A stretch of DNA of 64,000 nt, taken from assembly GCA_002938205.1 (NCBI GenBank), contig PTKZ01000004.1, positions 25,587-89,586 on the forward strand, given 5' to 3'. Each line of letters opens with the position of its first letter. Within the stretch, counting starts at the first letter, position 1. Below the pieces are notes generated by a model, which did not search any database, was not told the DNA's origin, and saw only the letters and a program-made list of their open reading frames with translations. The translations under genes were made by a program, and so were the position numbers. The DNA comes from Alphaproteobacteria bacterium MarineAlpha5_Bin5. GTDB lineage: Bacteria > Pseudomonadota > Alphaproteobacteria > HIMB59 > GCA-002718135. This document shows positions 8,475 to 62,579 of this stretch, piece by piece.

Positions 8475-9590
8475 TTGTATATGCTATTGAAAAAAATGGC
8501 TATATTTTTGAAAAAACTAACATTAATAAGTTTCTCCTTTTTAATTTTTGTTTTTTCTTTCAATTTAAATGCAAAAAAAGCAGCAATAGTAATAGACTTT
8601 GACACCAGTGAAGTTTTATTTGAAATTAACGCAGATACTCGAAATTATCCTGCATCCCTCACAAAAATGATGACTATTTACATAATTTTTGATTATTTAA
8701 AAAAAGGGAAATTAAAAAATGAAAGCTTACTATCTGTTTCAAAAAAAGCTGCAAGTAAACAACCAAGTAAGCTTTATTTAGAACCAGGCTCTTTTATTAA
8801 AGTTGAAGATGCTATTTTAGCTTTAATTGTTAAATCAGCAAATGATGTTGCAGCTGTAGTAGCAGAAAATATAAGTGGTACAGAAAAAGCATTTTCTAAA
8901 TTGATGACTAAATATGCTCGAGATTTAGGTATGAACAGTACAACTTTTAGAAATGCATCTGGGTTACATGATAGAGCACAGTTAACGACTGCCAGAGACA
9001 TGTCTACTCTATCACATTCACTAATAAAAAATTTTCCAAACAAATATAAGTTGTTTAGCCGTCAAAAATTTACTTATGCTGGGAAAACATACAAGACACA
9101 TAATAAACTTATGCTAAGTTATGATGGTGCTGATGGAATTAAAACTGGATACATTAAAGCATCTGGATTTCAACTAGCCTTTTCTGCAGTAAGACAAAAC
9201 AAAAGATTGGTAGGTGTTATATTTGGAGGTGATTCAGGTTCACAAAGAAACAAATCTCTAAGAATTATAATGGATAAGGTATTTGCAGACTTAAATATAA
9301 TAAATAAAAGGTCAAATGAAACTATTATAAAAAAGAGTAAAAATTTAAATAATTCATATTCTATAGTTGTTGGTACTTTTAAATACAAGAATAACGCAAA
9401 CAAACAACTTAAGTTAATTAGAAAAAAATATCCAAAGACTACTGATAATAAAATTGAGGAAATAGTCCTAATAAAAAGTGGTGGCAAACAACTGTATGAA
9501 TCTAGATTTAATAATTTTAGTAAAAAAGAAGCTTATCAAGCATGTAAAAGATTAAAAAAATATAAAAGAGATTGTTTTGTTAGATTATAA
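8475..9590 (+). CDS. D-alanyl-D-alanine carboxypeptidase (S11) with a C-terminal SPOR-like domain
   Basis: Signal peptide, SxxK (SLTK), SxN (SAN) and KTG motifs are all present. The C-terminal ~80 aa (YSIVVGTFKYKNNA...) resembles a SPOR peptidoglycan-binding repeat. The start codon is ambiguous. Confidence 0.85.
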   Translation: MYMLLKKMAIFLKKLTLISFSFLIFVFSFNLNAKKAAIVIDFDTSEVLFEINADTRNYPASLTKMMTIYIIFDYLKKGKLKNESLLSVSKKAASKQPSKLYLEPGSFIKVEDAILALIVKSANDVAAVVAENISGTEKAFSKLMTKYARDLGMNSTTFRNASGLHDRAQLTTARDMSTLSHSLIKNFPNKYKLFSRQKFTYAGKTYKTHNKLMLSYDGADGIKTGYIKASGFQLAFSAVRQNKRLVGVIFGGDSGSQRNKSLRIIMDKVFADLNIINKRSNETIIKKSKNLNNSYSIVVGTFKYKNNANKQLKLIRKKYPKTTDNKIEEIVLIKSGGKQLYESRFNNFSKKEAYQACKRLKKYKRDCFVRL

Positions 9591-28536: not shown

Positions 28537-29001
28537 TTAAAAAAATAACCATCTTTTAACAGCTTGACAGTATCTTTTATATTCATCCTCAAACTTATTA
28601 TTCAAATAATCTTCTTCAGCTGGTATTACGTAATTATTCATCCAAAAAAATAACCCTAAAGAACTCAGAAAATATAATACATTTTCAAAAGTCAAAAACA
28701 TACTCAAATGAAATAAGACGAAAGCTATGTACATTGGGTTTCTAGCATAAGCAAAAATTCCTGTTTTAATTAAACGTTGCGATTCAGTTTTTGGTCTTGG
28801 GTTTTCATTATATATTGAAAATAAGTTAAATGCTGAAAAGAAAAATATAAAACTTATTATTATTCCTAACAAACCAAATAGATTTAATAAGTAGAATAAA
28901 CTATATTTTGGCAAAATAAATTCTCCAAAAAAATATGAAAAGATTAATAAATAAACAGAGATATATAAAGGATTACCAATGACGTTAGGTCTCATTATCA
29001 A
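28537..29001 (-). CDS. ICMT/PEMT-like membrane methyltransferase family protein
   Basis: 154-aa polytopic protein with the YARNPMY block and a C-terminal EE..L...F...Y..Y pattern, typical of isoprenylcysteine carboxyl methyltransferase-like proteins. Confidence 0.6.
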   Translation of the reverse strand: MIMRPNVIGNPLYISVYLLIFSYFFGEFILPKYSLFYLLNLFGLLGIIISFIFFFSAFNLFSIYNENPRPKTESQRLIKTGIFAYARNPMYIAFVLFHLSMFLTFENVLYFLSSLGLFFWMNNYVIPAEEDYLNNKFEDEYKRYCQAVKRWLFF

Positions 29002-29657
29002 TATCTTTCTATTAACGGCATTAGTTTACTATAAGTATCTATAACTTCACTTGCACCCGCCTCATATAATTCCTTATTGCTTCTCTCTTTATACCAATGA
29101 CCTCCGGCTGTTATTCCGATAACTTTAATATCTGCAGCAACACCAGCTTTCACCCCTACAATACTATCTTCAATTATAACTGTTTCCTTCTTGTTCAATC
29201 CATTTTCATAAATAGCTTTTAAATATATATCAGGATTAGGTTTTGGCATTTTTACCATATCATATGAATATATTTGAGAAGGTTTAAAAAACTCATCTAA
29301 TTTCACTTTTTTCAAACCATCTAAAATTCTAATTTTCAAACTATTTGAGCCAATAAATAAATTAAGATTTGAATCTTGCACAAATTTATATGCTCCTTTT
29401 ACTGTTTCTAATTCATTTAAGTATATATTTGTCGCTATATTCATTATTTCATCATAAAATTTTTTTTCATTTTTTATTGTAAATCTATCAGCTAAAATAG
29501 AAATTACTTGTACTGTTTTAAAACCTGCAAATTTAGAAAATTCTTTTTCCTCAAACGGAAAACCAAAATTATTCATATATTTAGTAAAGGCCCTGGCTAC
29601 AAGAATTTCGCTATCTACTAAGACACCATCAAAATCAAAAATAATGTTATTTATCAT
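28998..29657 (-). CDS. HAD-superfamily hydrolase (beta-phosphoglucomutase-like)
   Basis: Motif I IIFDFDGVLVDSE, motif II GSNS, motif IV EDSIVGVKAG. 219 aa. Confidence 0.8.
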   Translation of the reverse strand: MINNIIFDFDGVLVDSEILVARAFTKYMNNFGFPFEEKEFSKFAGFKTVQVISILADRFTIKNEKKFYDEIMNIATNIYLNELETVKGAYKFVQDSNLNLFIGSNSLKIRILDGLKKVKLDEFFKPSQIYSYDMVKMPKPNPDIYLKAIYENGLNKKETVIIEDSIVGVKAGVAADIKVIGITAGGHWYKERSNKELYEAGASEVIDTYSKLMPLIERY

Positions 29658-29743
29658 TAAATATTAAGTGTCTTTTAAAGAATTTTAACTAATTTTGTTT
29701 TATTTTTTATTAAATATTATTAATATATAATAATAATAATTAA

Positions 29744-29802
29744 GCGATACATAACTCGTCGTGATCATACGGAAGTGGGATAGGTCGCCTTCAAATTGAG
29801 GG
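29744..29802 (+). promoter_or_regulatory. GC-rich structured 5' leader (candidate cis-regulatory RNA) of the LLM operon
   Basis: About 46% GC by my hand count, after a nearly GC-free stretch of ~85 nt. It has a closing helix GCGAU/GUCGC (29744-48 / 29784-88), a core ACGGAAGUGGG, and hairpin CCUUCA-AAU-UGAGGG (29788-29802) covering the SD. Confidence 0.35.
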
Positions 29803-29808
29803 AGTTAA

Positions 29809-30981
29809 ATGAAAATTGGCTATTTCTGTAATGCAACTAACTGGGAAAATAATAAGAGTTACGATCAAATATTACAGGAAGTAAGAGAAATAGCTACATA
29901 CTGCGATGAAAATGAATGGGATTCTATTTGGTTTACAGAACATCACTTTAGTCATGAAGGAATGGAAATCTGCCCTAATCCACTACTTCTAAGTTCTGAT
30001 ATTGCTGCAAGAACTAAAAAAATAAGAATTGGTCAGGCTGCTAGCATTATAACATTCTGGAACCCTATAAGAGTCGCTGAAGATATTGCACTTTTAGATC
30101 AACTATCTAATGGCAGAGTTGAAGCGGGTATTGGTAGAGGAATTTATGGTAGAGAAGCATTAAACATGAATGCTGATGCCGATATGAAAGATCAGGCTAA
30201 AAATTTTAGGCTTTTTGAAGAAACATTAACAATAATGAAAAAAGCTTGGACTGAAAAATTTTTTAATCATAAAGGTGAATTTTATACTTATCCAGCGCCA
30301 AATTTTGAATGGCAACATGATATGAGTCCTCCAAGCTCTGATTTTATGAATATAGAGAAAAGAATATTGGAAAAATTAAGAATTGTACCACAACCAGTTC
30401 AAAAACCACACCCACCTTTGTGGCAAGTAGTAGATAGTCCAAGTTCGATCGAGTGGGCAGCTAAACAAGATATAAATGTTATTATGTGGATACCCCCTGT
30501 GCAATCTTTAAAAAAACGTTTTGAAATCTATCAAAAAGCAAAAGCAGAAAAAGAAAATCGTCATGTTGAATTAGGTGAAGGGATTAGTGTTGTAAGAGAT
30601 ATGTTCGTCGCTAATACTATGGAAGAAGCAAAAGAGAAGGCTGGTGAACAAATGGTTAATTATATGAGATGGGTATGTCACTGGAGAGGATTAGGAACTC
30701 ATATGAATCCTGGAGAAGAACTTCCTAAAACAGATCATAAGTTAGATTTATTATCATATGAATTTTTACATGAAAGAAATATGCTTTTTGGAACTGTTGA
30801 TTATATTATAAATAAAATTGAAGAAATGGAGTCGGTGCTAAATTTAAAAAATTTACAAGTTTGGTCTAATTTTCCTGGTGTTAAACATAATGATTGTATG
30901 AACAGTATAAAGTTATTTACTGAAAAAATTTTACCTCATTTTAAGAATAAAGCTAAAAGCAAAATTAAAGCTGCCTCATAA
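29809..30981 (+). CDS. LLM-class (luciferase-like) flavin-dependent monooxygenase
   Basis: 390 aa with FTEHHF near the N-terminus, LSNGRVEAGIGRG, and a TIM-barrel LLM layout. Confidence 0.8.
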   Translation: MKIGYFCNATNWENNKSYDQILQEVREIATYCDENEWDSIWFTEHHFSHEGMEICPNPLLLSSDIAARTKKIRIGQAASIITFWNPIRVAEDIALLDQLSNGRVEAGIGRGIYGREALNMNADADMKDQAKNFRLFEETLTIMKKAWTEKFFNHKGEFYTYPAPNFEWQHDMSPPSSDFMNIEKRILEKLRIVPQPVQKPHPPLWQVVDSPSSIEWAAKQDINVIMWIPPVQSLKKRFEIYQKAKAEKENRHVELGEGISVVRDMFVANTMEEAKEKAGEQMVNYMRWVCHWRGLGTHMNPGEELPKTDHKLDLLSYEFLHERNMLFGTVDYIINKIEEMESVLNLKNLQVWSNFPGVKHNDCMNSIKLFTEKILPHFKNKAKSKIKAAS

Positions 30982-32675
30982 TGAAAAAAGAAATAAACCG
31001 CCCTATTACGGGAGGTAAGGCTGTTATAGAATGTCTGAAGGCACACAACATTAAGTATGTATTTGGCTTAATTGGTTCTGCCACAATGGAAATTTTTGAT
31101 GCACTATACGACGAAGAGAGTATAAGGTTTATTGATGTGCGAGATGAGCGTACAGGAGCACACATGGCTGATGCATTTGCTAGAGCTTCAGGCAATCATG
31201 GAGTTATCATTGCAGGTCAAAACGGTCCAGGTGCTACAAATCTTGTAACAGGTGTAGCGCAAGCAAAAGCTGCTTTTTCTCCTCTTTTATCAATAGCTGG
31301 AGCAATATCAACAGATCATCAAGGCAAAGATGCTTTTCAAGACATTGATCAACAAAAAATATTTGAACCAATTACAAAAAAAACTTTTTCAATAAATCAC
31401 ACTAAATCCATTGTAGAAGATTTGAACAAAGCTTTATATCTTGCCATGCAAGAAAAATGGGGTCCAGTTCATGTGAATATACCTCGTGATATTCTAGCTG
31501 GTGTTGAAAGTTTTAAATCATATATAATTAAAGACACTATTGAAAATAAAAATGTTGATGAAAAAGATATAGAAAAAATTAGTCTATTAATTGACAGCTC
31601 TTCAAAACCAGTAATTATTTGTGGGGCGGGAATTAAGAACTCTAATTCTCAAAATGAAATAATTTCTCTATCAAAAAAACTAAATATACCTATTGTATCT
31701 TCCGCTGGACACGGAGATGTAATTCCTTCTGATTATGAGTTATATGCTGGGCAAATGGGTCCTAGAGGTAATAAAATTGCCTCATCTCTTGTAAAGAATG
31801 CTGATTTGATATTAGCTATTGGAACGAGACTTGGCTTCAATTCAACTTTTTACTCTTATGATAATATTTCTAAATTTGCTAAAATTGTTCAAGTGGATAT
31901 TGATCCAATTGCTCTAGGTAGATATTTTCCCATTGAAGTTGGTATAAACAATGATGCAAAAATATTTTTAGAAAATTTTATTTCATTTATGAGTAGAAAA
32001 GATTTTAAAAATAATAGTGAAATATGGATAAAAAAATTTTTAAAAGAAAAAGCTATTTACTATAAAAAAAGAGATGAGAATGCTGATGTAGACTCAAAAA
32101 TAATTCAACCTTCTGGATTGTTTAAAGAATTAAGAGATATAATGCCAAAAAATGCTTCAGTAACTCTAGATGCAGGTACATTATGTCTGCAAGCTACTGA
32201 TCAGTTTAATTTTTTTGAAACAAGATCGTTATTCACCCCTTTAGATTTTGGTTTAGTCGGTTTTTCATTTGCTGCAGGTCTGGGTGTTAAACTAGCAAAA
32301 CCAGATTCTCCAGTATTTAGTTTGATGGGTGATGGCGGTTTTGGAATGACCGTATCAGAATTATCTACTGCTGTTCATCATAAAATTAACACCATTACAA
32401 TTATAATGAATAATAAATCATGGGGAGCGGAAAAAGCTTATCAAAGAGATTTTTATGATAAGAGATATATTGCTGTCGATATTAGTAACCCTCCTTTTCA
32501 CGAGCTTGCTGATATATATGGCGCTAAAGGATATCACATAACTCATCTAAAAAATTTAAAAGAAGCTGTTTCTGATGCCTTAGTTTGCAATAAACCAGCT
32601 ATTATAAATGTAGAAGTTGATCCTAATGAACTATATAGTTTTAGAAAAGATTCTTTTACACATAGATCAAAATGA
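30981..32675 (+). CDS. thiamine-diphosphate-dependent enzyme (acetolactate synthase / Xsc-like fold)
   Basis: Three-domain, 564-aa layout with ThDP motif GDGGFGM...NNKSWG. Its ATG overlaps the LLM gene's stop. Confidence 0.85.
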   Translation: MKKEINRPITGGKAVIECLKAHNIKYVFGLIGSATMEIFDALYDEESIRFIDVRDERTGAHMADAFARASGNHGVIIAGQNGPGATNLVTGVAQAKAAFSPLLSIAGAISTDHQGKDAFQDIDQQKIFEPITKKTFSINHTKSIVEDLNKALYLAMQEKWGPVHVNIPRDILAGVESFKSYIIKDTIENKNVDEKDIEKISLLIDSSSKPVIICGAGIKNSNSQNEIISLSKKLNIPIVSSAGHGDVIPSDYELYAGQMGPRGNKIASSLVKNADLILAIGTRLGFNSTFYSYDNISKFAKIVQVDIDPIALGRYFPIEVGINNDAKIFLENFISFMSRKDFKNNSEIWIKKFLKEKAIYYKKRDENADVDSKIIQPSGLFKELRDIMPKNASVTLDAGTLCLQATDQFNFFETRSLFTPLDFGLVGFSFAAGLGVKLAKPDSPVFSLMGDGGFGMTVSELSTAVHHKINTITIIMNNKSWGAEKAYQRDFYDKRYIAVDISNPPFHELADIYGAKGYHITHLKNLKEAVSDALVCNKPAIINVEVDPNELYSFRKDSFTHRSK

Positions 32676-33454
32676 GTTTTAAAGAATATACAGACTCATC
32701 TGGAAATTATTATCAATTAAGTGAGGCAAAAGGATCGCCAATTACTATTTTTGTCCATGGAGTGGGTTTGGATAATACAATGTGGTATCCTCAAAAGAAA
32801 TTTTTTTCCGATAAACCAGTTTTGTTTTATGATCTAATAAATCATGGCCAATCAATTGGAGGTTTTAAGGAGCTAAGTTTTGAAATTTACAGTAATCAAT
32901 TATTAAATTTAATTAATGAATTGCAATTAGAAAAAATAAATCTTGTAGGATTTTCAATTGGCGCACTTATTGCACAACATTTTACTGAAAAGTTTTATAA
33001 AAAAATAAATAAGTTAGTTTTGATTGGTAGTGTATTTAAAAGATCATATGAGCAAATTGAAATTGTTCAAAAAAGATATAATCAAGCTCTTAAAGGTTCT
33101 AACATAACTATTGACTCAATCAACAGATGGTTTTCAGAAAATTATTTAAAAAAAAACCCTCAGGTTTATAATTTTTTTTATAATCTCTTAGAAAAGAAAA
33201 ATGATCAAAATTTTTTACCTGCTTATAAAATATTTGTTGATTCTGATAGATATCCAATAAATTATAGAAACTTTAAAATGCCAACTTTAATTATGACGGG
33301 GGAAAATGAAGTTGGTTCAACACCTCTTATGAGTGAGAGAATGAGTAGAGAGATCAATAATAGTGATTTATATATTATTAAAAATACAAAACATGGAGCA
33401 ACAATAGAACAAGCTGATATTGTTAATAAAAAAATTAATAAATTTTTATTCTAA
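32672..33454 (+). CDS. alpha/beta hydrolase
   Basis: HGVG oxyanion block and nucleophile elbow GFSIGA. 260 aa. It overlaps the upstream gene by 4 nt. Confidence 0.8.
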   Translation: MSFKEYTDSSGNYYQLSEAKGSPITIFVHGVGLDNTMWYPQKKFFSDKPVLFYDLINHGQSIGGFKELSFEIYSNQLLNLINELQLEKINLVGFSIGALIAQHFTEKFYKKINKLVLIGSVFKRSYEQIEIVQKRYNQALKGSNITIDSINRWFSENYLKKNPQVYNFFYNLLEKKNDQNFLPAYKIFVDSDRYPINYRNFKMPTLIMTGENEVGSTPLMSERMSREINNSDLYIIKNTKHGATIEQADIVNKKINKFLF

Positions 33455-33694: not shown

Positions 33695-34798
33695 CTATTT
33701 GAATTCTGAAACTTGATATTCTGCACTATTTATCCAATCAGGATTGATATCTATTCCCCATCCAGGTTTTTCAGATACAGTGACGCAACCATTTTCTACT
33801 AAAAAAGGATTATCCAAAAATAACTTTTGTTGCCAAGGATAATAATCCTCATCTTCAATAGAAAGTTCTAAATATGGACCTGCATTAGGAATAGCTTTAA
33901 GTAAATGCATTGTACAAATTGTAACTAATGATAGATTTGCAGAATGTGGTGTACAAATAAATCCTCCTTCTTCAATTATTTTTGCAACTTGTAGAGTTCT
34001 TGTTAGTCCTCCCAGATACATTACATCAGGTTGAAAAATATTTACTATCTTTCTCTCAACCATATCTCTCCAAATTCTGAGATCACAATCCTGTTCACCT
34101 CCTGCAACATCGATTGAAAGAGCATTTGTAACTTCTTTTGTCTGTTCAGACTCCCAATATGGACAAGGTTCTTCAAAATGTATAACATTATTATCTTCTA
34201 AAAGTTTTCCAATTTCAATCGCTTGTTCTGATGAGAAACAACTATTTGCATCAACTAGCTTTTTTACAGAATTATCTAGAGATATATTAATTGTTTTAAC
34301 AATATCTTCTGTTCTGCCTTCCCATTCATCAACTCCTCTACCGCATTCTGAACCAATTCTATATTTAAAAGCACCTATTCCTTTCTCATGAAATAGTTTG
34401 TTAAATCGATTAGCTTCATCCATAGCAGTAATATCCCTTTTCATTGATGAGCCATATACTTTCAGTGCTCCAGTACTTCCCCCTATTAATAAAGTTACAG
34501 GTTTTTCTTCAAGTTTTCCTCTTAAATCCCATAATGATGTATCAAGACCTGCAATAGCTCTTAATAAATAAGAACCCGGAAATTTATGTTCTTTTTCTAA
34601 AATCCAATTTTCTATATCGCTAAAATCATGCCAAGATTTACCCAATACCCATGGTGCAACTTGTTTATGAAATATTTGTGCAGTAATATCTGCATGATAC
34701 GTAGACATTTGACCATAACCCACAGAACCATCTTCTAATGTTGTTTTAACAAAACTAACATAGGTTTTAGTAAAAGTTTCTAGTTTTTTAATTTTCAT
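33695..34798 (-). CDS. enolase-superfamily enzyme (mandelate racemase/muconate lactonizing family, sugar-acid dehydratase-like)
   Basis: 367 aa. Metal-ligand blocks VDAN, FEEP and GGEQD sit in the expected order and spacing. Confidence 0.8.
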   Translation of the reverse strand: MKIKKLETFTKTYVSFVKTTLEDGSVGYGQMSTYHADITAQIFHKQVAPWVLGKSWHDFSDIENWILEKEHKFPGSYLLRAIAGLDTSLWDLRGKLEEKPVTLLIGGSTGALKVYGSSMKRDITAMDEANRFNKLFHEKGIGAFKYRIGSECGRGVDEWEGRTEDIVKTINISLDNSVKKLVDANSCFSSEQAIEIGKLLEDNNVIHFEEPCPYWESEQTKEVTNALSIDVAGGEQDCDLRIWRDMVERKIVNIFQPDVMYLGGLTRTLQVAKIIEEGGFICTPHSANLSLVTICTMHLLKAIPNAGPYLELSIEDEDYYPWQQKLFLDNPFLVENGCVTVSEKPGWGIDINPDWINSAEYQVSEFK

Positions 34799-36414
34799 TA
34801 ATAGTGTTGTTTTAATTCTTCCAAAATAATTTTACTAGATAAAAGCGCTAACATCATTACAGGAGCATTAATATTTCCTGAAGTAATATTTGGCATAATA
34901 GAGGCATCAATTATCCATAAATTATCAAGACCATGAACTTTTAAATTATGAGATACAACACCTTCACTAATATTCTTGCTCATACGACAAGTGCCACATG
35001 GATGATAAATAGTAGTTGCATTTGATTTAAAATGATCAAGTAAATTGTCATCATTTGATTGTAATGGATCAATATTTACTGGGGATTCTATAATATTATT
35101 TATGTGTTTATTTGCTATAAACTGTCTAATGAAATTAAATGTAGAATACAAATCATGAATATCTCTTTCGTCAGTTAAATAATTTGGATTTATTTTTGGC
35201 AAATATGCATTATTAGATATTTTAAGTTTTACTTCACCAAGACTTTTTGGTCTACAAGAATTAAACCCAATAATAAAACCGTTAAATTTATCAGTTTTAA
35301 GTAATGGCCTTTTATTTTTATAAGATACAGAGTAAGTTAAGGGATTAAAGTATAATTGAATATTGGGATAATGATCTAGAGAATTCCAATTAATATATCC
35401 TCCACCCTGATTAAGACTTAATGAAAAAGGCCCTTTTCTATTATAAAGGTATCTCAAAACTGATTTTATTCTTCCGCTCCAAGTGCCTAAATCATAATTT
35501 AATGTTGGCATATAAGTTTTATATAAATAATCTAAACCTAAATGATCTTGTAAATTTTTACCAACATGAGGGCTGTTTAAAATAACCGGTATATTATAAT
35601 CTTTTAACTCTTCTGCTTTACCTATCCCTGATTTTAATAAAAGATAAGGTGTCATAATTGAGCCACTTGATAAGATTACACCAACCTTAGGCCTCACTGT
35701 AATTATTGTATTTTTATGCTTAATTTCTAAACTTGATATTTTTTTATTTTCATAATTTAATTTTAAAACTTCTGTTTTAGTAAAAAGAGTTAAATTTGGA
35801 TGATTTTTAATTGGTTTTAAAAAAATTTTTGCTGATGAAACTCTAAAACCATTAAATATATTAACATTATAATTTCCTACTTGATTTTCTATTGAACTTT
35901 TTAATTGTTTATTAAAAGTAAATTTAAAATCATCAGCCGCATCAAAAAAATTTTTTAATATAGGATGATGTTGATTGCTAACATCATTCACGGGAATTTT
36001 ATTAGAAGGTATTTTTTTTGTCTTGTCATTAATGGCAAATTCAATTTCCTCGTATGTAGCTTTTATATTTCCCCAAGACCAATTTTTATTAAAATTCCAA
36101 TTCTCAAAATCAGTCCTTAACCCTCGCGCATAAATCATAGCATTAATAGATCCCGAACCACCTAGAACCTTTCCACGAGGATAATAAATTTCTCTATTGT
36201 TTAGATTTTTTTGAGTTTCAGAATAGAAATTCCAATTCATCTTATTGTGATAAAAAGTCATTCCATAACCAAGAGGAACTTGGATGACAGGACTATTATC
36301 GCTAGGTCCTGCCTCTATCAATAACACTTTATAATTAGTATTATTAATGATTTGATTTGTCACAATACAGCCAGCTGAACCAGCGCCGACTATAACTATA
36401 TCAAAATGATCCAA
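34798..36414 (-). CDS. GMC-family FAD oxidoreductase
   Basis: N-terminal DIVIVGAGSAGC, GGSGSINAM, and a C-terminal HPCGTCRM block. 538 aa. Confidence 0.85.
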   Translation of the reverse strand: MDHFDIVIVGAGSAGCIVTNQIINNTNYKVLLIEAGPSDNSPVIQVPLGYGMTFYHNKMNWNFYSETQKNLNNREIYYPRGKVLGGSGSINAMIYARGLRTDFENWNFNKNWSWGNIKATYEEIEFAINDKTKKIPSNKIPVNDVSNQHHPILKNFFDAADDFKFTFNKQLKSSIENQVGNYNVNIFNGFRVSSAKIFLKPIKNHPNLTLFTKTEVLKLNYENKKISSLEIKHKNTIITVRPKVGVILSSGSIMTPYLLLKSGIGKAEELKDYNIPVILNSPHVGKNLQDHLGLDYLYKTYMPTLNYDLGTWSGRIKSVLRYLYNRKGPFSLSLNQGGGYINWNSLDHYPNIQLYFNPLTYSVSYKNKRPLLKTDKFNGFIIGFNSCRPKSLGEVKLKISNNAYLPKINPNYLTDERDIHDLYSTFNFIRQFIANKHINNIIESPVNIDPLQSNDDNLLDHFKSNATTIYHPCGTCRMSKNISEGVVSHNLKVHGLDNLWIIDASIMPNITSGNINAPVMMLALLSSKIILEELKQHY

Positions 36415-61021: not shown

Positions 61022-62344
61022 TTAATCGCTATAAGCTTGAAGCCCAAGCTCAGCTTTATCAATACCAGCTTTTTGTATGTGATCAGGAACTCGTAACCAG
61101 CCAGCCATTTTCATTATATATGAAATTACATAACCAGGTACAAATCCAACTAAAGCCATTGTAATGATACCAACTATTTGACCCATTAGGTTTGAAGCTG
61201 GTATATCTCCTGCTGCTGGATAACCAGAAGCAAAAAGACCTACTGCCAACATACCTAAAATTCCACAAACACCATGGATTGAAACTGCACCTACACAGTC
61301 ATCAATTTTAAATGTATTGTGAAGCCAATTGTTTGCTGGAATAATAACAATACCAGCTACAATTCCAAGTATAAATGCAAATCCTGGATACCAGATATCA
61401 AGTCCACCTGCACAAATAAATATTCCTGCAAGTCCTCCTGACATCATCCAAAAAGGATTTCCTTTACTATACCAGAAAGCACCTATCATACCTCCGGCTA
61501 GACCCATCAAAGTATTAAATACAAAAGATGATAAAGTCATTGGAGCGCCATAAATATTTGTCCATCCCTCAACGCCTACCATACTAGCAGTATCGTATAC
61601 CATGACTCCTGGCCAAATTAAACAACCTCCAAGGAATCCAAAGAAACCTACAATCAAGGTTAATAGTCCTACAAAAGATAACACAAGACTATGACCTGCA
61701 AGCTCATTAGCCGTTCCATCATCGTTATATTTTCCTATTCTAGGTCCTAAATTTAATAATACTCCAAATGCAAACAAACCAGCTATTGTATGTACACAAC
61801 CTGCTGCTGCTACATCATGAAATCCCCAGTTAGTAACAAGCCATCCGCCAGCATGCCATCCCCATGAGGCTCCTAAGATCCACACAACTGAACCAAGAAT
61901 TGTTGCTAAAAAAACGAAAGCACTAATCCTTATTCTTTCAATCACTGCACCTGAGAAAATAGAAGCAGTAGTACAGGCAAATAAAGTAAAAGCAGCCCAA
62001 AAAACTCCTGTCTCATGATCTCCGATAAATGGTCCGGAAAATTCATTCCAAGGTAATCCATAACCTGGAATATCTAAACCTGCATCAAAAATTGGTACAA
62101 AGCCACCTGGAAAAGCCCAATAAATCCACCATCCAAATAGCCAAAAAGTTGGTATCATAAATGCAAACGCCAATAAATTTTTAACACCAGAAGAAACGGC
62201 ATTTTTCATTCTTGTAGCACCTACTTCATACATTAAGAAACCAACATGAATAATAATCATAAGCCCTGTACACCACCAATAATAAGCTTCAGCTGAAACT
62301 TTTTGCTGGCCAAGTACAAAAGCTGCTAATTGATCAACAGTCAT
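61022..62344 (-). CDS. amt: ammonium transporter
   Basis: 440-aa polytopic protein with Amt/MEP blocks (FHDVAAAGCVH, DDCVGAVSIHGVCGILG). A strong SD AAGGAGG precedes the ATG. Confidence 0.95.
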   Translation of the reverse strand: MTVDQLAAFVLGQQKVSAEAYYWWCTGLMIIIHVGFLMYEVGATRMKNAVSSGVKNLLAFAFMIPTFWLFGWWIYWAFPGGFVPIFDAGLDIPGYGLPWNEFSGPFIGDHETGVFWAAFTLFACTTASIFSGAVIERIRISAFVFLATILGSVVWILGASWGWHAGGWLVTNWGFHDVAAAGCVHTIAGLFAFGVLLNLGPRIGKYNDDGTANELAGHSLVLSFVGLLTLIVGFFGFLGGCLIWPGVMVYDTASMVGVEGWTNIYGAPMTLSSFVFNTLMGLAGGMIGAFWYSKGNPFWMMSGGLAGIFICAGGLDIWYPGFAFILGIVAGIVIIPANNWLHNTFKIDDCVGAVSIHGVCGILGMLAVGLFASGYPAAGDIPASNLMGQIVGIITMALVGFVPGYVISYIMKMAGWLRVPDHIQKAGIDKAELGLQAYSD

Positions 62345-62423
62345 TTTACCTCCTTACGAGTTCAAGTAATAATCATTTAACTCATCAGTTTAAGAAACAA
62401 TAAAAGGGAAAACAAATGAACTG

Positions 62424-62475
62424 CGTTCCTTCGGTTTTACCCTACTTCCGTCTCACTCAAATAATGAGATGAACG
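62424..62475 (-). promoter_or_regulatory. glutamine riboswitch-like aptamer (glnA RNA motif) in the amt leader
   Basis: The minus-strand RNA reads CGUUCA-UCUCAUUAUUUGAGUGAGA-CGGAAGUAGG-GUAAAA-CCGAAGGAACG. It has P1 CGUUC/GAACG, an internal hairpin, and loop-E-like AGUA/GAA closed by GG/CC. These match my recollection of the glnA motif conserved blocks. It lies 79 nt upstream of the amt ATG. Confidence 0.75.
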
Positions 62476-62579
62476 ATATATAATACTTTCTATCTAGGCT
62501 TTTATTAAGTGATTCAATAGTAATTTCATTCTTTTTAGTGAATCATGGGAGTATTTTTTCCTAGAATTCAGCTATTTTG

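What the first reader, a model, noticed from the sequence alone, without database searches (positions are those of the whole stretch)
29744..29808. GC-rich structured leader sharing an ACGGAAGU-GG core with the amt riboswitch, upstream of an orphan monooxygenase operon
The 150-nt spacer is almost pure A/T until 29744, then jumps to about 46% GC by my hand count. The RNA reads GCGAUACAUAACUCGUCGUGAUCAUACGGAAGUGGGAUAGGUCGCCUUCAAAUUGAGGGAGUUAAAUG. It can form a closing helix GCGAU/GUCGC around a 35-nt core, followed immediately by hairpin CCUUCA-AAU-UGAGGG, which occludes the SD. The core ACGGAAGUGGG resembles ACGGAAGUAGGG in the amt leader. However, the CGUUCA and CCGAAGGAACG blocks of the glnA motif are absent. 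It is therefore either a divergent relative or an unrelated, possibly undescribed, translational riboswitch.
Basis: partly seen in the sequence, partly recalled or inferred. Interest (0 to 1): 0.6.

Follow-up and report, generated by a model that had tools for sequence, protein, structure and literature searches.

The report
New riboswitch-like leader before monooxygenase operon
A 45-base folded RNA just ahead of a monooxygenase operon is conserved almost letter for letter across the ocean's most abundant bacteria (SAR11 and HIMB59), matches no described RNA family, looks like a sensor for an unknown small molecule, and is also used as a docking site by mobile genetic elements.

Summary
Positions 29744-29808 are 46% G+C, after an 86-nt spacer of 7% G+C. 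The proposed closing helix and the hairpin over the ribosome-binding site are both there.

The element (29744-29788) lies upstream of every orthologue of the downstream luciferase-like monooxygenase (LLM) that I could fetch: 37 genomes, about 110 metagenome contigs and 3 divergent clades.

- **Structure:** two helices, P1 and P2b, keep pairing through compensatory changes. In the protein-anchored set 7 of 13 pairs change on both sides, which 0 of 500 shuffles reach. The internal loop is nearly invariant and the P2 loop varies from 4 to about 30 nt.
- **Known families:** no Rfam 15 family matches, even at E<=10, and I found no paper describing it.
- **Glutamine riboswitch:** the resemblance is superficial. 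The shared "ACG" is a covarying stem, and neither covariance model finds the other RNA.

Best reading: a new orphan riboswitch candidate acting on translation of an LLM / TPP-enzyme / hydrolase operon. The ligand and the ON/OFF direction are unknown.

Unexpected extra: phage-like elements with a tyrosine integrase integrate into its 3' part and carry their own copy. attP, attB, attL and attR junctions were all recovered.

The parts
29726..29731 (+). -10-like hexamer TATAAT, 12 nt upstream of P1 (putative promoter; a start site about 29738-29741 is inferred)
   Evidence: Read from the sequence. In 113 distinct orthologous upstream regions, -10-like hexamers pile up 11-13 nt before P1, and several have good -35 boxes. 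The simple promoter scan itself found no full -35/-10 match in the window, so this part is inferred.
29744..29748 (+). P1, 5' strand (GCGAU)
   Evidence: Pairs with 29784-29788. Compensatory variants are GGGA/UCCC, GUGA/UCAC, ACGA/UCGU and AAAUCAA/UUGAUUU.
29749..29754 (+). 5' side of the internal loop, ACAUAA (nearly invariant)
   Evidence: Invariant in all 38 protein-anchored leaders. Only A49U or C50U occur, in the three divergent clades.
29755..29758 (+). P2a, 5' strand (CUCG); putative, pairs with 29776-29779
   Evidence: CUC/GGG never vary, so the helix is neither supported nor refuted. The fourth pair R58:Y76 is G-U 81, A-C 24, A-U 15, G-C 2 of 122 distinct sequences.
29759..29762 (+). 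P2b, 5' strand (UCGU)
   Evidence: All four pairs show changes on both sides. RNAalifold predicts the helix independently.
29763..29768 (+). P2 terminal loop (GAUCAU); variable in sequence and length
   Evidence: 4 to about 30 nt across homologues, with no conservation.
29769..29772 (+). P2b, 3' strand (ACGG)
   Evidence: Covaries with 29759-29762.
29773..29775 (+). AAG bulge (invariant)
   Evidence: Invariant in the protein-anchored set.
29776..29779 (+). P2a, 3' strand (UGGG)
   Evidence: See the P2a 5' strand.
29780..29783 (+). 3' side of the internal loop, AUAG (AUMG in the family)
29784..29788 (+). P1, 3' strand (GUCGC). In SAR11 relatives this is also the crossover core of the integration site.
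   Evidence: for pairing. Searches show the att junctions switching sequence at GGGATCGATCG.
29788..29802 (+). Hairpin CCUUCA-AAU-UGAGGG that covers the ribosome-binding site (SD GAGGGAG about 29798-29804). It shares C29788 with P1.
   Evidence: Predicted paired with probability above 0.95. An equivalent anti-SD/SD hairpin occurs in most homologues: 75 of 86 distinct leaders, mean z -1.7. Covariation support is only modest.
29809..30981 (+). Luciferase-like (FMN-dependent) monooxygenase, first gene of the controlled operon
   Evidence: PF00296, E 2.5e-44. The closest full-length solved relative is 3,6-diketocamphane monooxygenase.
30981..32675 (+). Thiamine-diphosphate enzyme (acetolactate-synthase / sulfoacetaldehyde-acetyltransferase-like; below every equivalog cut-off)
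32672..33454 (+). alpha/beta-fold hydrolase (3-oxoadipate enol-lactonase-like)

Best explanation
29744-29788 encodes the sensor domain of a previously undescribed cis-acting leader RNA, an orphan riboswitch candidate. It sits at the very 5' end of the mRNA for an LLM monooxygenase / TPP enzyme / hydrolase operon. The fold is one irregular hairpin. P1 is 5 bp. It closes an asymmetric internal loop (ACAUAA opposite AUMG) next to an invariant CUC/GGG segment and an AAG bulge. P2b is a 4-bp stem topped by a loop that is free to vary. The invariant unpaired nucleotides are the presumed binding pocket for a small molecule linked to the operon's pathway. Directly behind P1, overlapping it by one nucleotide, an anti-SD/SD hairpin hides the ribosome-binding site, so control acts on translation initiation. 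What is shown: conservation, strand, position, and covariation of P1 and P2b. What is inferred: that the partner is a metabolite rather than a protein, and the direction of switching. My weak preference is an ON switch. The hairpin closes the SD by default. Ligand-stabilised P1 takes the shared nucleotide, and in many SAR11 lineages P1 can extend by pairing 5' AAAG with the anti-SD CUUU, which would free the SD. That would suit substrate induction of a catabolic operon. Separately, the DNA of the 3' part of the element serves as the attachment site of phage-like integrative elements, which carry their own complete copy.
For: (1) Ubiquity and position. There is exactly one hit per locus, on the gene's strand, 20-45 nt before the LLM start. 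This holds in the window, in 37 of 37 genome loci found through the protein alone (64-88% amino-acid identity, HIMB59/MarineAlpha5 and Pelagibacteraceae) and in 3 divergent clades. The surrounding spacer is not conserved. (2) Covariation. In set A2, 94.6% of cells are paired and 7 of 13 pairs change on both sides. That is reached by 0 of 500 shuffles, and slid controls give 0-1. Set A1 gives the same picture. RNAalifold finds P1 and P2b on its own. (3) Riboswitch-like anatomy: invariant loop nucleotides together with a P2 loop of 4 to about 30 nt. (4) RNA level and strand. G-U pairs are conserved (U48-G84 in 50 of 60 sequences, U56-G78 in all, G58-U76), and they would be mismatches on the other strand or in a DNA palindrome. 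(5) A -10 box lies 11-13 nt upstream in many lineages. (6) An SD hairpin is present in 75 of 86 leaders, with compatible variants such as CCAU/AUGG in L058. (7) Forcing the aptamer fold raises the modelled SD accessibility from 0.21 to 0.35 (63 leaders up, 24 down). (8) No Rfam family matches.
Against: No ligand is known and none can be tested here. A protein or another RNA could recognise the conserved loop instead. P2a (CUC/GGG) is invariant, so the core fold is not established, and 24 of 122 sequences have A-C at R58:Y76. The window's single-sequence fold is not better than shuffles (z -0.98). Covariation of the SD hairpin is weak: own versus cross complementarity is 7.05 against 6.16. L092 lacks the hairpin altogether. 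The P1-extension route to an ON switch is not available in the window's own HIMB59-type leader, so the direction is a guess. Nearest-neighbour modelling ignores tertiary and ligand energy. The metagenome sequences were collected with a pattern that fixes ACAUAACUC and AAGYGGGAU.G.UC, so invariance there is partly by construction. The protein-anchored sets are free of this bias. The element regulates one operon only, which gives little leverage on the ligand.
Confidence: 0.6

Rival explanations
1. It is a cis-regulatory leader recognised by a protein (or a trans-acting RNA) rather than by a metabolite. For example, an RNA-binding regulator or an operon enzyme binds the conserved internal loop and modulates the adjacent SD hairpin or mRNA stability.
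For: All the comparative evidence fits protein recognition equally well. The element serves a single operon, as many autoregulatory leaders do. A stable 5'-terminal stem-loop can also protect mRNA.
Against: No candidate RNA-binding protein is encoded in the conserved neighbourhood. The genes are LLM, TPP enzyme, AA_synth, hydrolase, aldehyde dehydrogenase and EamA. SAR11-type genomes have few regulators and use many riboswitches (stated in PMC13198564 and PMC2704228; otherwise my general knowledge). The compact pocket-like loop with a freely variable distal loop is typical of small aptamers.
Confidence: 0.22
2. It is a divergent member of the glutamine riboswitch family (glnA / Downstream-peptide motifs), like the amt leader in the same window.
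For: The 8+2-nt identity ACGGAAGU.GG with 62420-62477(-). Both are small leaders in the same genome.
Against: RF01739 and RF01704 give no hit at E<=10 on 29600-29900 or on five other representatives, while RF01739 scores 63 bits on the amt leader. Model R1 does not hit the amt leader at E<=10. The 'ACG' is a covarying stem strand, and most relatives read ACGAAAG. The CGUUC/GAACG P1 and the CCGAAGG block are absent. The gene context is not nitrogen assimilation.
Confidence: 0.02
3. It is conserved only as DNA, as an integrase attachment site or an operator for a DNA-binding regulator, with no RNA function.
For: It really is used as an attachment site. attP (L154, L117, L128, L098), attB (L042, L053, L021), attL (L133, L132, L080 copy 1) and attR (L039, L150) were recovered, with an integrase gene next to the site. 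The element also has dyad symmetry.
Against: Attachment sites exploit sequences that are conserved for other reasons. The motif is conserved in all genomes, nearly all of which carry no element. Conserved G-U pairs and compensatory changes are RNA-level and strand-specific signatures. Orientation and distance to the SD and start codon are fixed. The integrating elements bring a full replacement copy, as tRNA-targeting phages do, which suggests the host function must be preserved.
Confidence: 0.04
4. It is a chance G+C-rich patch with a fortuitous hairpin in an A+T-rich spacer.
For: The single-sequence folding z-score is unremarkable.
Against: Near-identity across two bacterial orders in more than 150 loci, while the flanks diverge completely. 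The model E-value is about 1e-13.
Confidence: 0.01

Closest known systems
Glutamine riboswitch (Rfam RF01739 glnA motif; RF01704 Downstream-peptide)
   Same: A small leader RNA in marine bacteria. It shares the literal string ACGGAAGU.GG with the copy at 62420-62477(-) of this window.
   Different: No covariance-model match in either direction. The P1 sequence, core blocks and architecture differ (a single hairpin with an internal loop, against a three-stem fold with an E-loop and pseudoknot; the latter is from my knowledge of published structures). The gene context is a catabolic-looking monooxygenase operon, not nitrogen assimilation.
Small translational riboswitches built as one hairpin with a conserved internal loop (for example the NMT1/xanthine, THF-II/folE and NAD+-II/pnuC motifs; recalled from the literature, and present in Rfam, so covered by cmscan)
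   Same: About 45 nt. A closing P1, a conserved asymmetric internal loop as the presumed pocket, a variable distal stem-loop, and the SD at or just behind the 3' strand of P1.
   Different: No sequence or structure match to any of them at E<=10. Here the SD lies in a separate hairpin that shares only one nucleotide with P1.
Known SAR11 leader RNAs (SAM-V, SAM-II, glycine, TPP; and the rpsB, ffh, pntA, rhtB, bablM and SAR11_0636 motifs of Meyer et al. 2009, PMC2704228)
   Same: A G+C-rich island in an A+T-rich spacer of a streamlined marine alphaproteobacterium, detectable by the same G+C logic.
   Different: It is not among the motifs listed in that paper. 'bablM' is a DNA methylase leader, not the monooxygenase. 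The downstream gene is different and there is no Rfam match.
tRNA-gene attachment sites of temperate pelagiphages (bioRxiv 10.1101/410191; PMC8477408)
   Same: A tyrosine integrase is encoded next to attP. A short common core lies inside a conserved structured-RNA gene. The element carries sequence that rebuilds the target after integration.
   Different: The target is a 5'-leader RNA element, not a tRNA. PMC8477408 states that all temperate pelagiphages known then use tRNA genes. The elements here have a P4-like integrase, a DUF5906/VapE primase, RusA and a gp2.5-like SSB. They match no deposited phage and no IMG/VR contig by pattern.

Membership tests
Glutamine riboswitch (RF01739 / RF01704) | Scores at or near the family covariance model's gathering threshold | tested here: not met
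   No hit at E<=10 on 29600-29900 or at E<=1 on five other representatives. The amt leader scores 63 bits against a threshold of 35.
Glutamine riboswitch (RF01739 / RF01704) | Conserved CGUUC...GAACG closing helix and CCGAAGG block | tested here: not met
   Absent from the window sequence and from all homologues.
Glutamine riboswitch (RF01739 / RF01704) | ACGGAAGUAGG conserved as a core block | tested here: not met
   ACG(R) is the 3' strand of covarying stem P2b. Only RAAGYGGG is conserved.
Glutamine riboswitch (RF01739 / RF01704) | Association with nitrogen-assimilation genes | tested here: not met
   The motif always precedes the LLM operon or sits at integrative-element junctions.
Glutamine riboswitch (RF01739 / RF01704) | Selective binding of L-glutamine | not testable with these tools
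   Needs in-line probing or ITC.
Any family in Rfam 15 (4227 models) | Covariance-model match | tested here: not met
Riboswitch (generic definition) | Conserved structured domain supported by covariation | tested here: met
   P1 and P2b: 7 of 13 pairs change on both sides, reached by 0 of 500 shuffles. Also.
Riboswitch (generic definition) | Located in the 5' untranslated leader of the gene it controls, on the sense strand | tested here: met
   One copy per locus, + strand, 20-45 nt before the LLM start in 41 of 41 loci. -10 boxes lie 11-13 nt upstream. The transcription start itself is inferred, not measured.
Riboswitch (generic definition) | Expression platform whose alternative states gate expression | tested here: inconclusive
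   An SD-covering hairpin is present in most leaders and overlaps P1 by 1 nt. No conserved, covarying alternative pairing was found.
Riboswitch (generic definition) | Direct, selective binding of a small-molecule ligand without protein | not testable with these tools
The ligand is unknown.
Attachment site (attB) of tyrosine-integrase elements | attP, attB, attL and attR sharing a common core, with flanks exchanged as recombination predicts | tested here: met
   L039 is the element's left flank plus motif plus the host LLM leader. L133, L132 and L080 copy 1 are a host left flank plus motif plus the integrase side. The core is about GGGATCGATCG. This holds for SAR11-type relatives, not for the window's own copy.
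Attachment site (attB) of tyrosine-integrase elements | Integrase gene adjacent to attP | tested here: met
   PF00589 plus the Arm-DNA-binding domain and phrog_1, in ORFs starting 110-160 nt after the motif.
Attachment site (attB) of tyrosine-integrase elements | An element integrated at the window's copy | tested here: not met
   The flanks are the usual HIMB59 host genes: HAD hydrolase and PEMT upstream, the LLM operon downstream.

The most novel reading that the evidence does not exclude
[quoted passage not shown] It is also the first non-tRNA attachment site for SAR11 mobile elements. Those elements carry their own aptamer copy directly upstream of their integrase gene, which might even tie integrase expression to the same metabolite (this last step is pure speculation).
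Probability: 0.4. Interest if true: 0.82.

Novelty: new member of a known kind. Interest (0 to 1): 0.68.

Why it matters
SAR11 and HIMB59-type cells dominate ocean surface bacterioplankton, have very few protein regulators and rely heavily on RNA switches.

- **A handle on an unknown pathway.** A new, highly conserved sensor RNA in front of an operon of unknown function points to a metabolite these cells care about and to the pathway that consumes it. The operon resembles Baeyer-Villiger-type oxidation, then ester or lactone hydrolysis, then aldehyde oxidation, plus a C-C-cleaving TPP enzyme. Finding the ligand would assign a function to a widespread set of marine genes. The 45-nt RNA is small enough for direct biochemical screening.
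- **A new integration target.** Integrative elements target this leader and carry a replacement copy. This extends the rule that pelagiphages integrate into tRNA genes to another class of structured-RNA target, and it independently suggests that the element is functionally important to the host.

Tried and rejected
- **Rfam.** cmscan of the whole window at gathering thresholds, of 29600-29900 at E<=10, and of five diverse representatives at E<=1 gave nothing. The one exception was a meaningless snoRNA hit on the opposite strand inside the HAD gene.
- **Kinship with the glutamine riboswitch.** Rejected.
- **A second copy in the window.** None found with model R1, filters off.
- **Long-range helix to the coding region.** ACGRAAGYGG (29769-29778) is complementary to codons 5-7 (UAU UUY UGY, 29820-29829) in all lineages. 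Within the HIMB59 clade, A72 variants keep UUC, so there is no compensation. The apparent G/A versus C/U association follows phylogeny. It stays an unexplained coincidence, not part of the model.
- **AAG bulge pairing with the anti-SD CUUY.** Only 4 bp across a 13-nt loop, not covarying, and broken in L058. Not adopted.
- **P1 extension by the 5' flank as a general ON mechanism.** It works for many SAR11 leaders but not for HIMB59-type leaders, including the window (and reading of the sequences).
- **Formal covariation of the SD hairpin.** Only a modest excess over cross-pairings.
- **Literature.** No description of the motif in Meyer 2009, the 50-genome survey or the pelagiphage integration papers, nor by gene-name or sequence-string searches. 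One search failed on syntax.
- **Nature of the elements.** The IMG/VR pattern scan, and INPHARED searches with the integrase protein and with attP DNA, gave no match. L154 has no terminal repeat.
- **Substrate inference.** From PDB and NCBIfam relatives of the enzymes only generic family assignments emerged.
- **Promoter and terminator scan of the spacer.** Nothing at the tool's thresholds.

Full report
**1. The observation**

It lies in the 151-nt spacer between a divergent HAD-hydrolase gene (28998-29657, minus strand) and an ATG at 29809.

G+C is 46.2% for 29744-29808 and 51% for 29744-29788. The preceding 86 nt have 7% and the whole window 29.9%. Fewer than 1% of 45-nt windows reach 51%.

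GCGAU/GUCGC can close a 35-nt core. CCUUCA-AAU-UGAGGG covers the Shine-Dalgarno (SD) purines, with pairing probability above 0.95 in the ensemble. The window sequence alone does not fold better than shuffles (z = -0.98), so the case rests on comparison with relatives.

**2. What lies downstream**

Three genes follow:
- 29809-30981 is a luciferase-like, FMN-dependent monooxygenase (LLM; PF00296).
- 30981-32675 is a thiamine-diphosphate enzyme of the acetolactate-synthase / sulfoacetaldehyde-acetyltransferase superfamily. It scores below every equivalog cut-off.
- 32672-33454 is an alpha/beta hydrolase resembling 3-oxoadipate enol-lactonase.

The closest full-length solved relative of the LLM is 3,6-diketocamphane monooxygenase, a Baeyer-Villiger-type enzyme. 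The TPP enzyme has only generic relatives.

**3. Relatives**

A protein-based scan of one genome per species returned 38 loci with 64-88% identical LLMs. They come from HIMB59/MarineAlpha5-type alphaproteobacteria (closest to the window) and from Pelagibacteraceae.

Every locus that includes the upstream region carries the same element in the same place, while the rest of the spacer is unalignable between clades.

A pattern taken from the invariant blocks, ACATAACTC N7-37 AAGYGGGAT.G.TC, has no chance matches in the shuffled window. About 110 of them precede an LLM orthologue.

Three more divergent LLM clades were reached through protein searches and contig look-ups, so they are independent of the pattern. 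They carry recognisable but more diverged copies.

A covariance model (R1) finds exactly one copy per locus, always on the gene's strand, in 41 of 41 protein-anchored loci. It finds only one in the 64-kb window, at 66.5 bits and E about 1e-13.

**4. Structure**

The consensus is:

5'-[GCGAU] ACAUAA [CUCR][UCGU]-loop-[ACGR] AAG [YGGG] AUMG [RUCGC]-3'

- **P1 (29744-48 with 29784-88) covaries.** Variants are GGGA/UCCC, GUGA/UCAC, ACGA/UCGU and C-G for U-G at the inner pair. In L159 the helix is entirely rewritten as AAAUCAA/UUGAUUU.
- **P2b (29759-62 with 29769-72) covaries at all four pairs.** Variants are UCAU/AUGA, UCGA/UCGA, UCGC/GCGA, UCAC/GUGA, CUG/CAG and CC/GG. Its loop ranges from 4 to about 30 nt with no conservation.
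- **Pair counts, protein-anchored alignment.** 94.6% of cells pair and 7 of 13 pairs change on both sides. That is reached by 0 of 500 shuffles, and slid controls give 0-1.
- **Pair counts, 60-sequence MAFFT alignment.** 6 pairs change on both sides, reached by 1 of 500 shuffles.
- **Independent predictions.** RNAalifold predicts P1 and P2b on its own. The isolated 45-mer's minimum-free-energy fold is this structure.
- **P2a is unresolved.** The proposed CUC/GGG helix never varies, so it is neither supported nor refuted. Its fourth position is G-U in 81, A-C in 24, A-U in 15 and G-C in 2 of 122 distinct sequences. G-U and protonated A-C wobble pairs are isosteric (general knowledge), but relatedness of the sequences could produce the same pattern. 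I leave this open.
- **The signal is RNA-level.** Conserved G-U pairs (U48-G84, U56-G78, G58-U76, U59-G72 in the window) show that the constraint acts on this strand of RNA, not on duplex DNA.

**5. Position in the transcript and expression platform**

In many lineages a good sigma-70-type promoter ends 10-13 nt before P1. Examples are TTGCAA-17-TAACAT in L017 and TTGAAC-16-TAAAAT in L026. -10-like hexamers are enriched 11-13 nt upstream across 113 distinct leaders.

The window has TATAAT at 29726-29731, 12 nt before P1. The simple scan found no full promoter there, so the start site near 29738-29741 is inferred. The element would then form the extreme 5' end of the mRNA.

Directly after P1, and sharing its last nucleotide (C29788), comes an anti-SD/SD hairpin. 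Its sequence differs by clade: CCUUC/GGAGG, CCUUUAA/UUAAAGG, UCUUUAAA/UUUAAAGG, a 14-bp version, and CCAU/AUGG in L058. In 75 of 86 distinct leaders the minimum-free-energy fold pairs SD nucleotides, with a mean z of -1.7.

Formal support from covariation is modest, and one leader (L092) lacks the hairpin.

**6. Mechanism**

*Shown:* a conserved, covarying, strand-specific RNA fold at the 5' end of one operon, next to a hairpin that occludes the ribosome-binding site.

*Inferred:* the invariant loop binds a small molecule, and P1 formation is coupled to the SD hairpin.

Forcing the aptamer fold in silico raises SD accessibility on average (0.35 against 0.21; 63 leaders up, 24 down). In many SAR11 leaders this is because P1 can extend by pairing a 5' AAAG with the anti-SD CUUU. 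The window's HIMB59-type leader cannot do this; only the one-nucleotide overlap remains.

I therefore lean weakly to an ON switch, meaning substrate induction of a catabolic operon whose SD is closed by default. The direction should be treated as open.

Two other candidate alternative pairings were examined and not adopted:
- AAG with the anti-SD.
- The 10-bp complementarity of 29769-29778 to codons 5-7. Within the HIMB59 clade the A72 variants keep UUC, so there is no compensation.

**7. Gene context and the ligand**

Across loci the operon is LLM, usually the TPP enzyme, often an AA_synth (PF06684) protein, the alpha/beta hydrolase, and in SAR11 an aldehyde dehydrogenase. EamA exporters or a LivK-type binding protein sometimes follow. 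A 2OG-Fe(II) oxygenase can sit before or after the motif; in L059 the order is motif, oxygenase, LLM.

In SAR11 the divergent neighbours are a creatinase/M24-type hydrolase and an Asp/Glu-racemase/Amdase-type protein. They resemble ectoine-degradation DoeA/EutD and EutA by family only (my recollection, not tested).

A Baeyer-Villiger-like monooxygenase, an esterase or lactonase, an aldehyde dehydrogenase and a C-C-cleaving TPP enzyme together suggest catabolism of a ketone or alpha-hydroxy-ketone-type compound. This is inference from family membership. The ligand is unknown.

**8. Comparison with what is known**

No Rfam 15 family matches the window element at E<=10 or five diverse representatives at E<=1. 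The window's only Rfam hit is the glutamine riboswitch at 62420-62477(-), 63 bits, upstream of amt at 61022-62344(-).

The shared ACGGAAGU.GG is coincidental. The ACG is a covarying stem strand and most relatives read ACGAAAG. The glnA-motif blocks are absent, and neither model recognises the other RNA.

The motif is not among the Pelagibacter motifs of Meyer et al. 2009 (PMC2704228). It is not mentioned in the 50-genome survey (PMC11109978). No searched paper links a riboswitch to this operon.

Limits of this check: only open-access text and Rfam were searched. Unpublished or subscription-only descriptions cannot be excluded.

**9. An unexpected second role**

About ten metagenome contigs carry the motif away from the LLM gene.

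- **The element.** In L154, L117, L128 and L098 the motif lies between a replication module and a 474-534-aa P4-like tyrosine integrase that starts 110-160 nt downstream. The module comprises a DUF5906/VapE primase, RusA and a gp2.5-like SSB.
- **attR.** L039 joins the element's left flank and its own version of the motif to the host LLM leader. L150 is the same type.
- **attL.** L133, L080 copy 1 and L132 join a host left flank and a host version of the motif to the integrase side. The first 111 nt of L132 are 94.6% identical to SAR11 genome AAA240-E13 (L021).
- **attB.** L042, L053 and L021 are empty sites.
- **Crossover.** Sequence identity switches within about GGGATCGATCG, the 3' part of the motif.
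- **A possible island.** L080 has two motif copies 9.2 kb apart, bracketing glpK-to-glpD genes. It looks like an island with a decayed integrase.

The elements match no deposited phage and no IMG/VR contig by pattern. Published work reports only tRNA genes as pelagiphage integration sites (10.1101/410191; PMC8477408). The window's own copy has no element next to it.

**10. Verdict**

The glutamine-riboswitch link is rejected. I put about 0.85 on a functional cis-regulatory RNA and about 0.6 on a metabolite-binding riboswitch.

It is a new family of a known kind of element, in ecologically dominant organisms, and it doubles as an integration site for mobile elements.

Noticed in passing
window 62420-62477 (-), with amt at 61022-62344 (-): A bona fide glutamine riboswitch (RF01739, 63 bits against a threshold of 35) lies about 75 nt upstream of an ammonium transporter gene (PF00909).
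   Followed up: yes
L154 12492-12541, L117, L128 6056-6093, L098 2160-2208 (attP); L039, L150 (attR); L133, L132 70-107, L080 copy 1 (attL): Phage-like integrative elements (P4-like tyrosine integrase, DUF5906/VapE primase, RusA, gp2.5-like SSB) carry a full copy of the motif next to their integrase gene. They integrate into the host motif with a crossover near GGGATCGATCG. This would be a non-tRNA attachment site in SAR11. The elements match no deposited phage.
   Followed up: partly
L080 (reverse orientation) 51-98 and 9231-9272: Two motif copies lie 9.2 kb apart. The first is followed by about 200 nt of element sequence, including the start of an integrase gene. Then come glycerol kinase through glycerol-3-phosphate dehydrogenase genes, and then the second copy and the LLM. 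It looks like a genomic island inserted at this site with a decayed integrase.
   Followed up: partly
window 29769-29778 versus 29820-29829: The 3' half of the element (ACGGAAGUGG) is complementary over 10 bp (3 of them G-U) to codons 5-7 (Tyr-Phe-Cys) of the LLM gene. This complementarity exists in all lineages. There is no compensatory change within the HIMB59 clade, so it may be coincidence.
   Followed up: yes
window 29758 and 29776 (R58:Y76), family-wide: This position pair is G-U (81), A-C (24), A-U (15) or G-C (2) in 122 distinct sequences. The G-U / A-C alternation would fit a required wobble geometry, but it may simply follow phylogeny.
   Followed up: partly
L147 1278-1314 and downstream: The motif and its SD hairpin are fused directly to what reads like the last 60 or so codons of the operon's aldehyde dehydrogenase. 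This is apparently a deletion of most of the operon that kept the leader.
   Followed up: no
L092 (leader) and L052 1682-1729 (reverse orientation): L092 has the SD 3 nt after P1 and no anti-SD hairpin. L052 has a motif copy with a long P2 and no LLM gene downstream (a convergent FabI-like gene follows). Both are exceptions to the usual layout.
   Followed up: no
L162 1944-3860 (-), and the equivalent genes in many SAR11 loci: Divergently from the motif-LLM operon, SAR11 loci encode a creatinase/M24-type hydrolase, an Asp/Glu-racemase/Amdase-type protein and an ABC importer. By family these resemble ectoine-degradation genes (DoeA/EutD, EutA). This is a possible hint to the pathway. The arrangement is absent from the window's HIMB59-type locus.
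   Followed up: no
window 33695-36414 (-): Convergent with the operon are an enolase-superfamily (MR/MLE) dehydratase-like gene and a GMC oxidoreductase (choline-dehydrogenase-like). Any relation to the operon is unknown.
   Followed up: no
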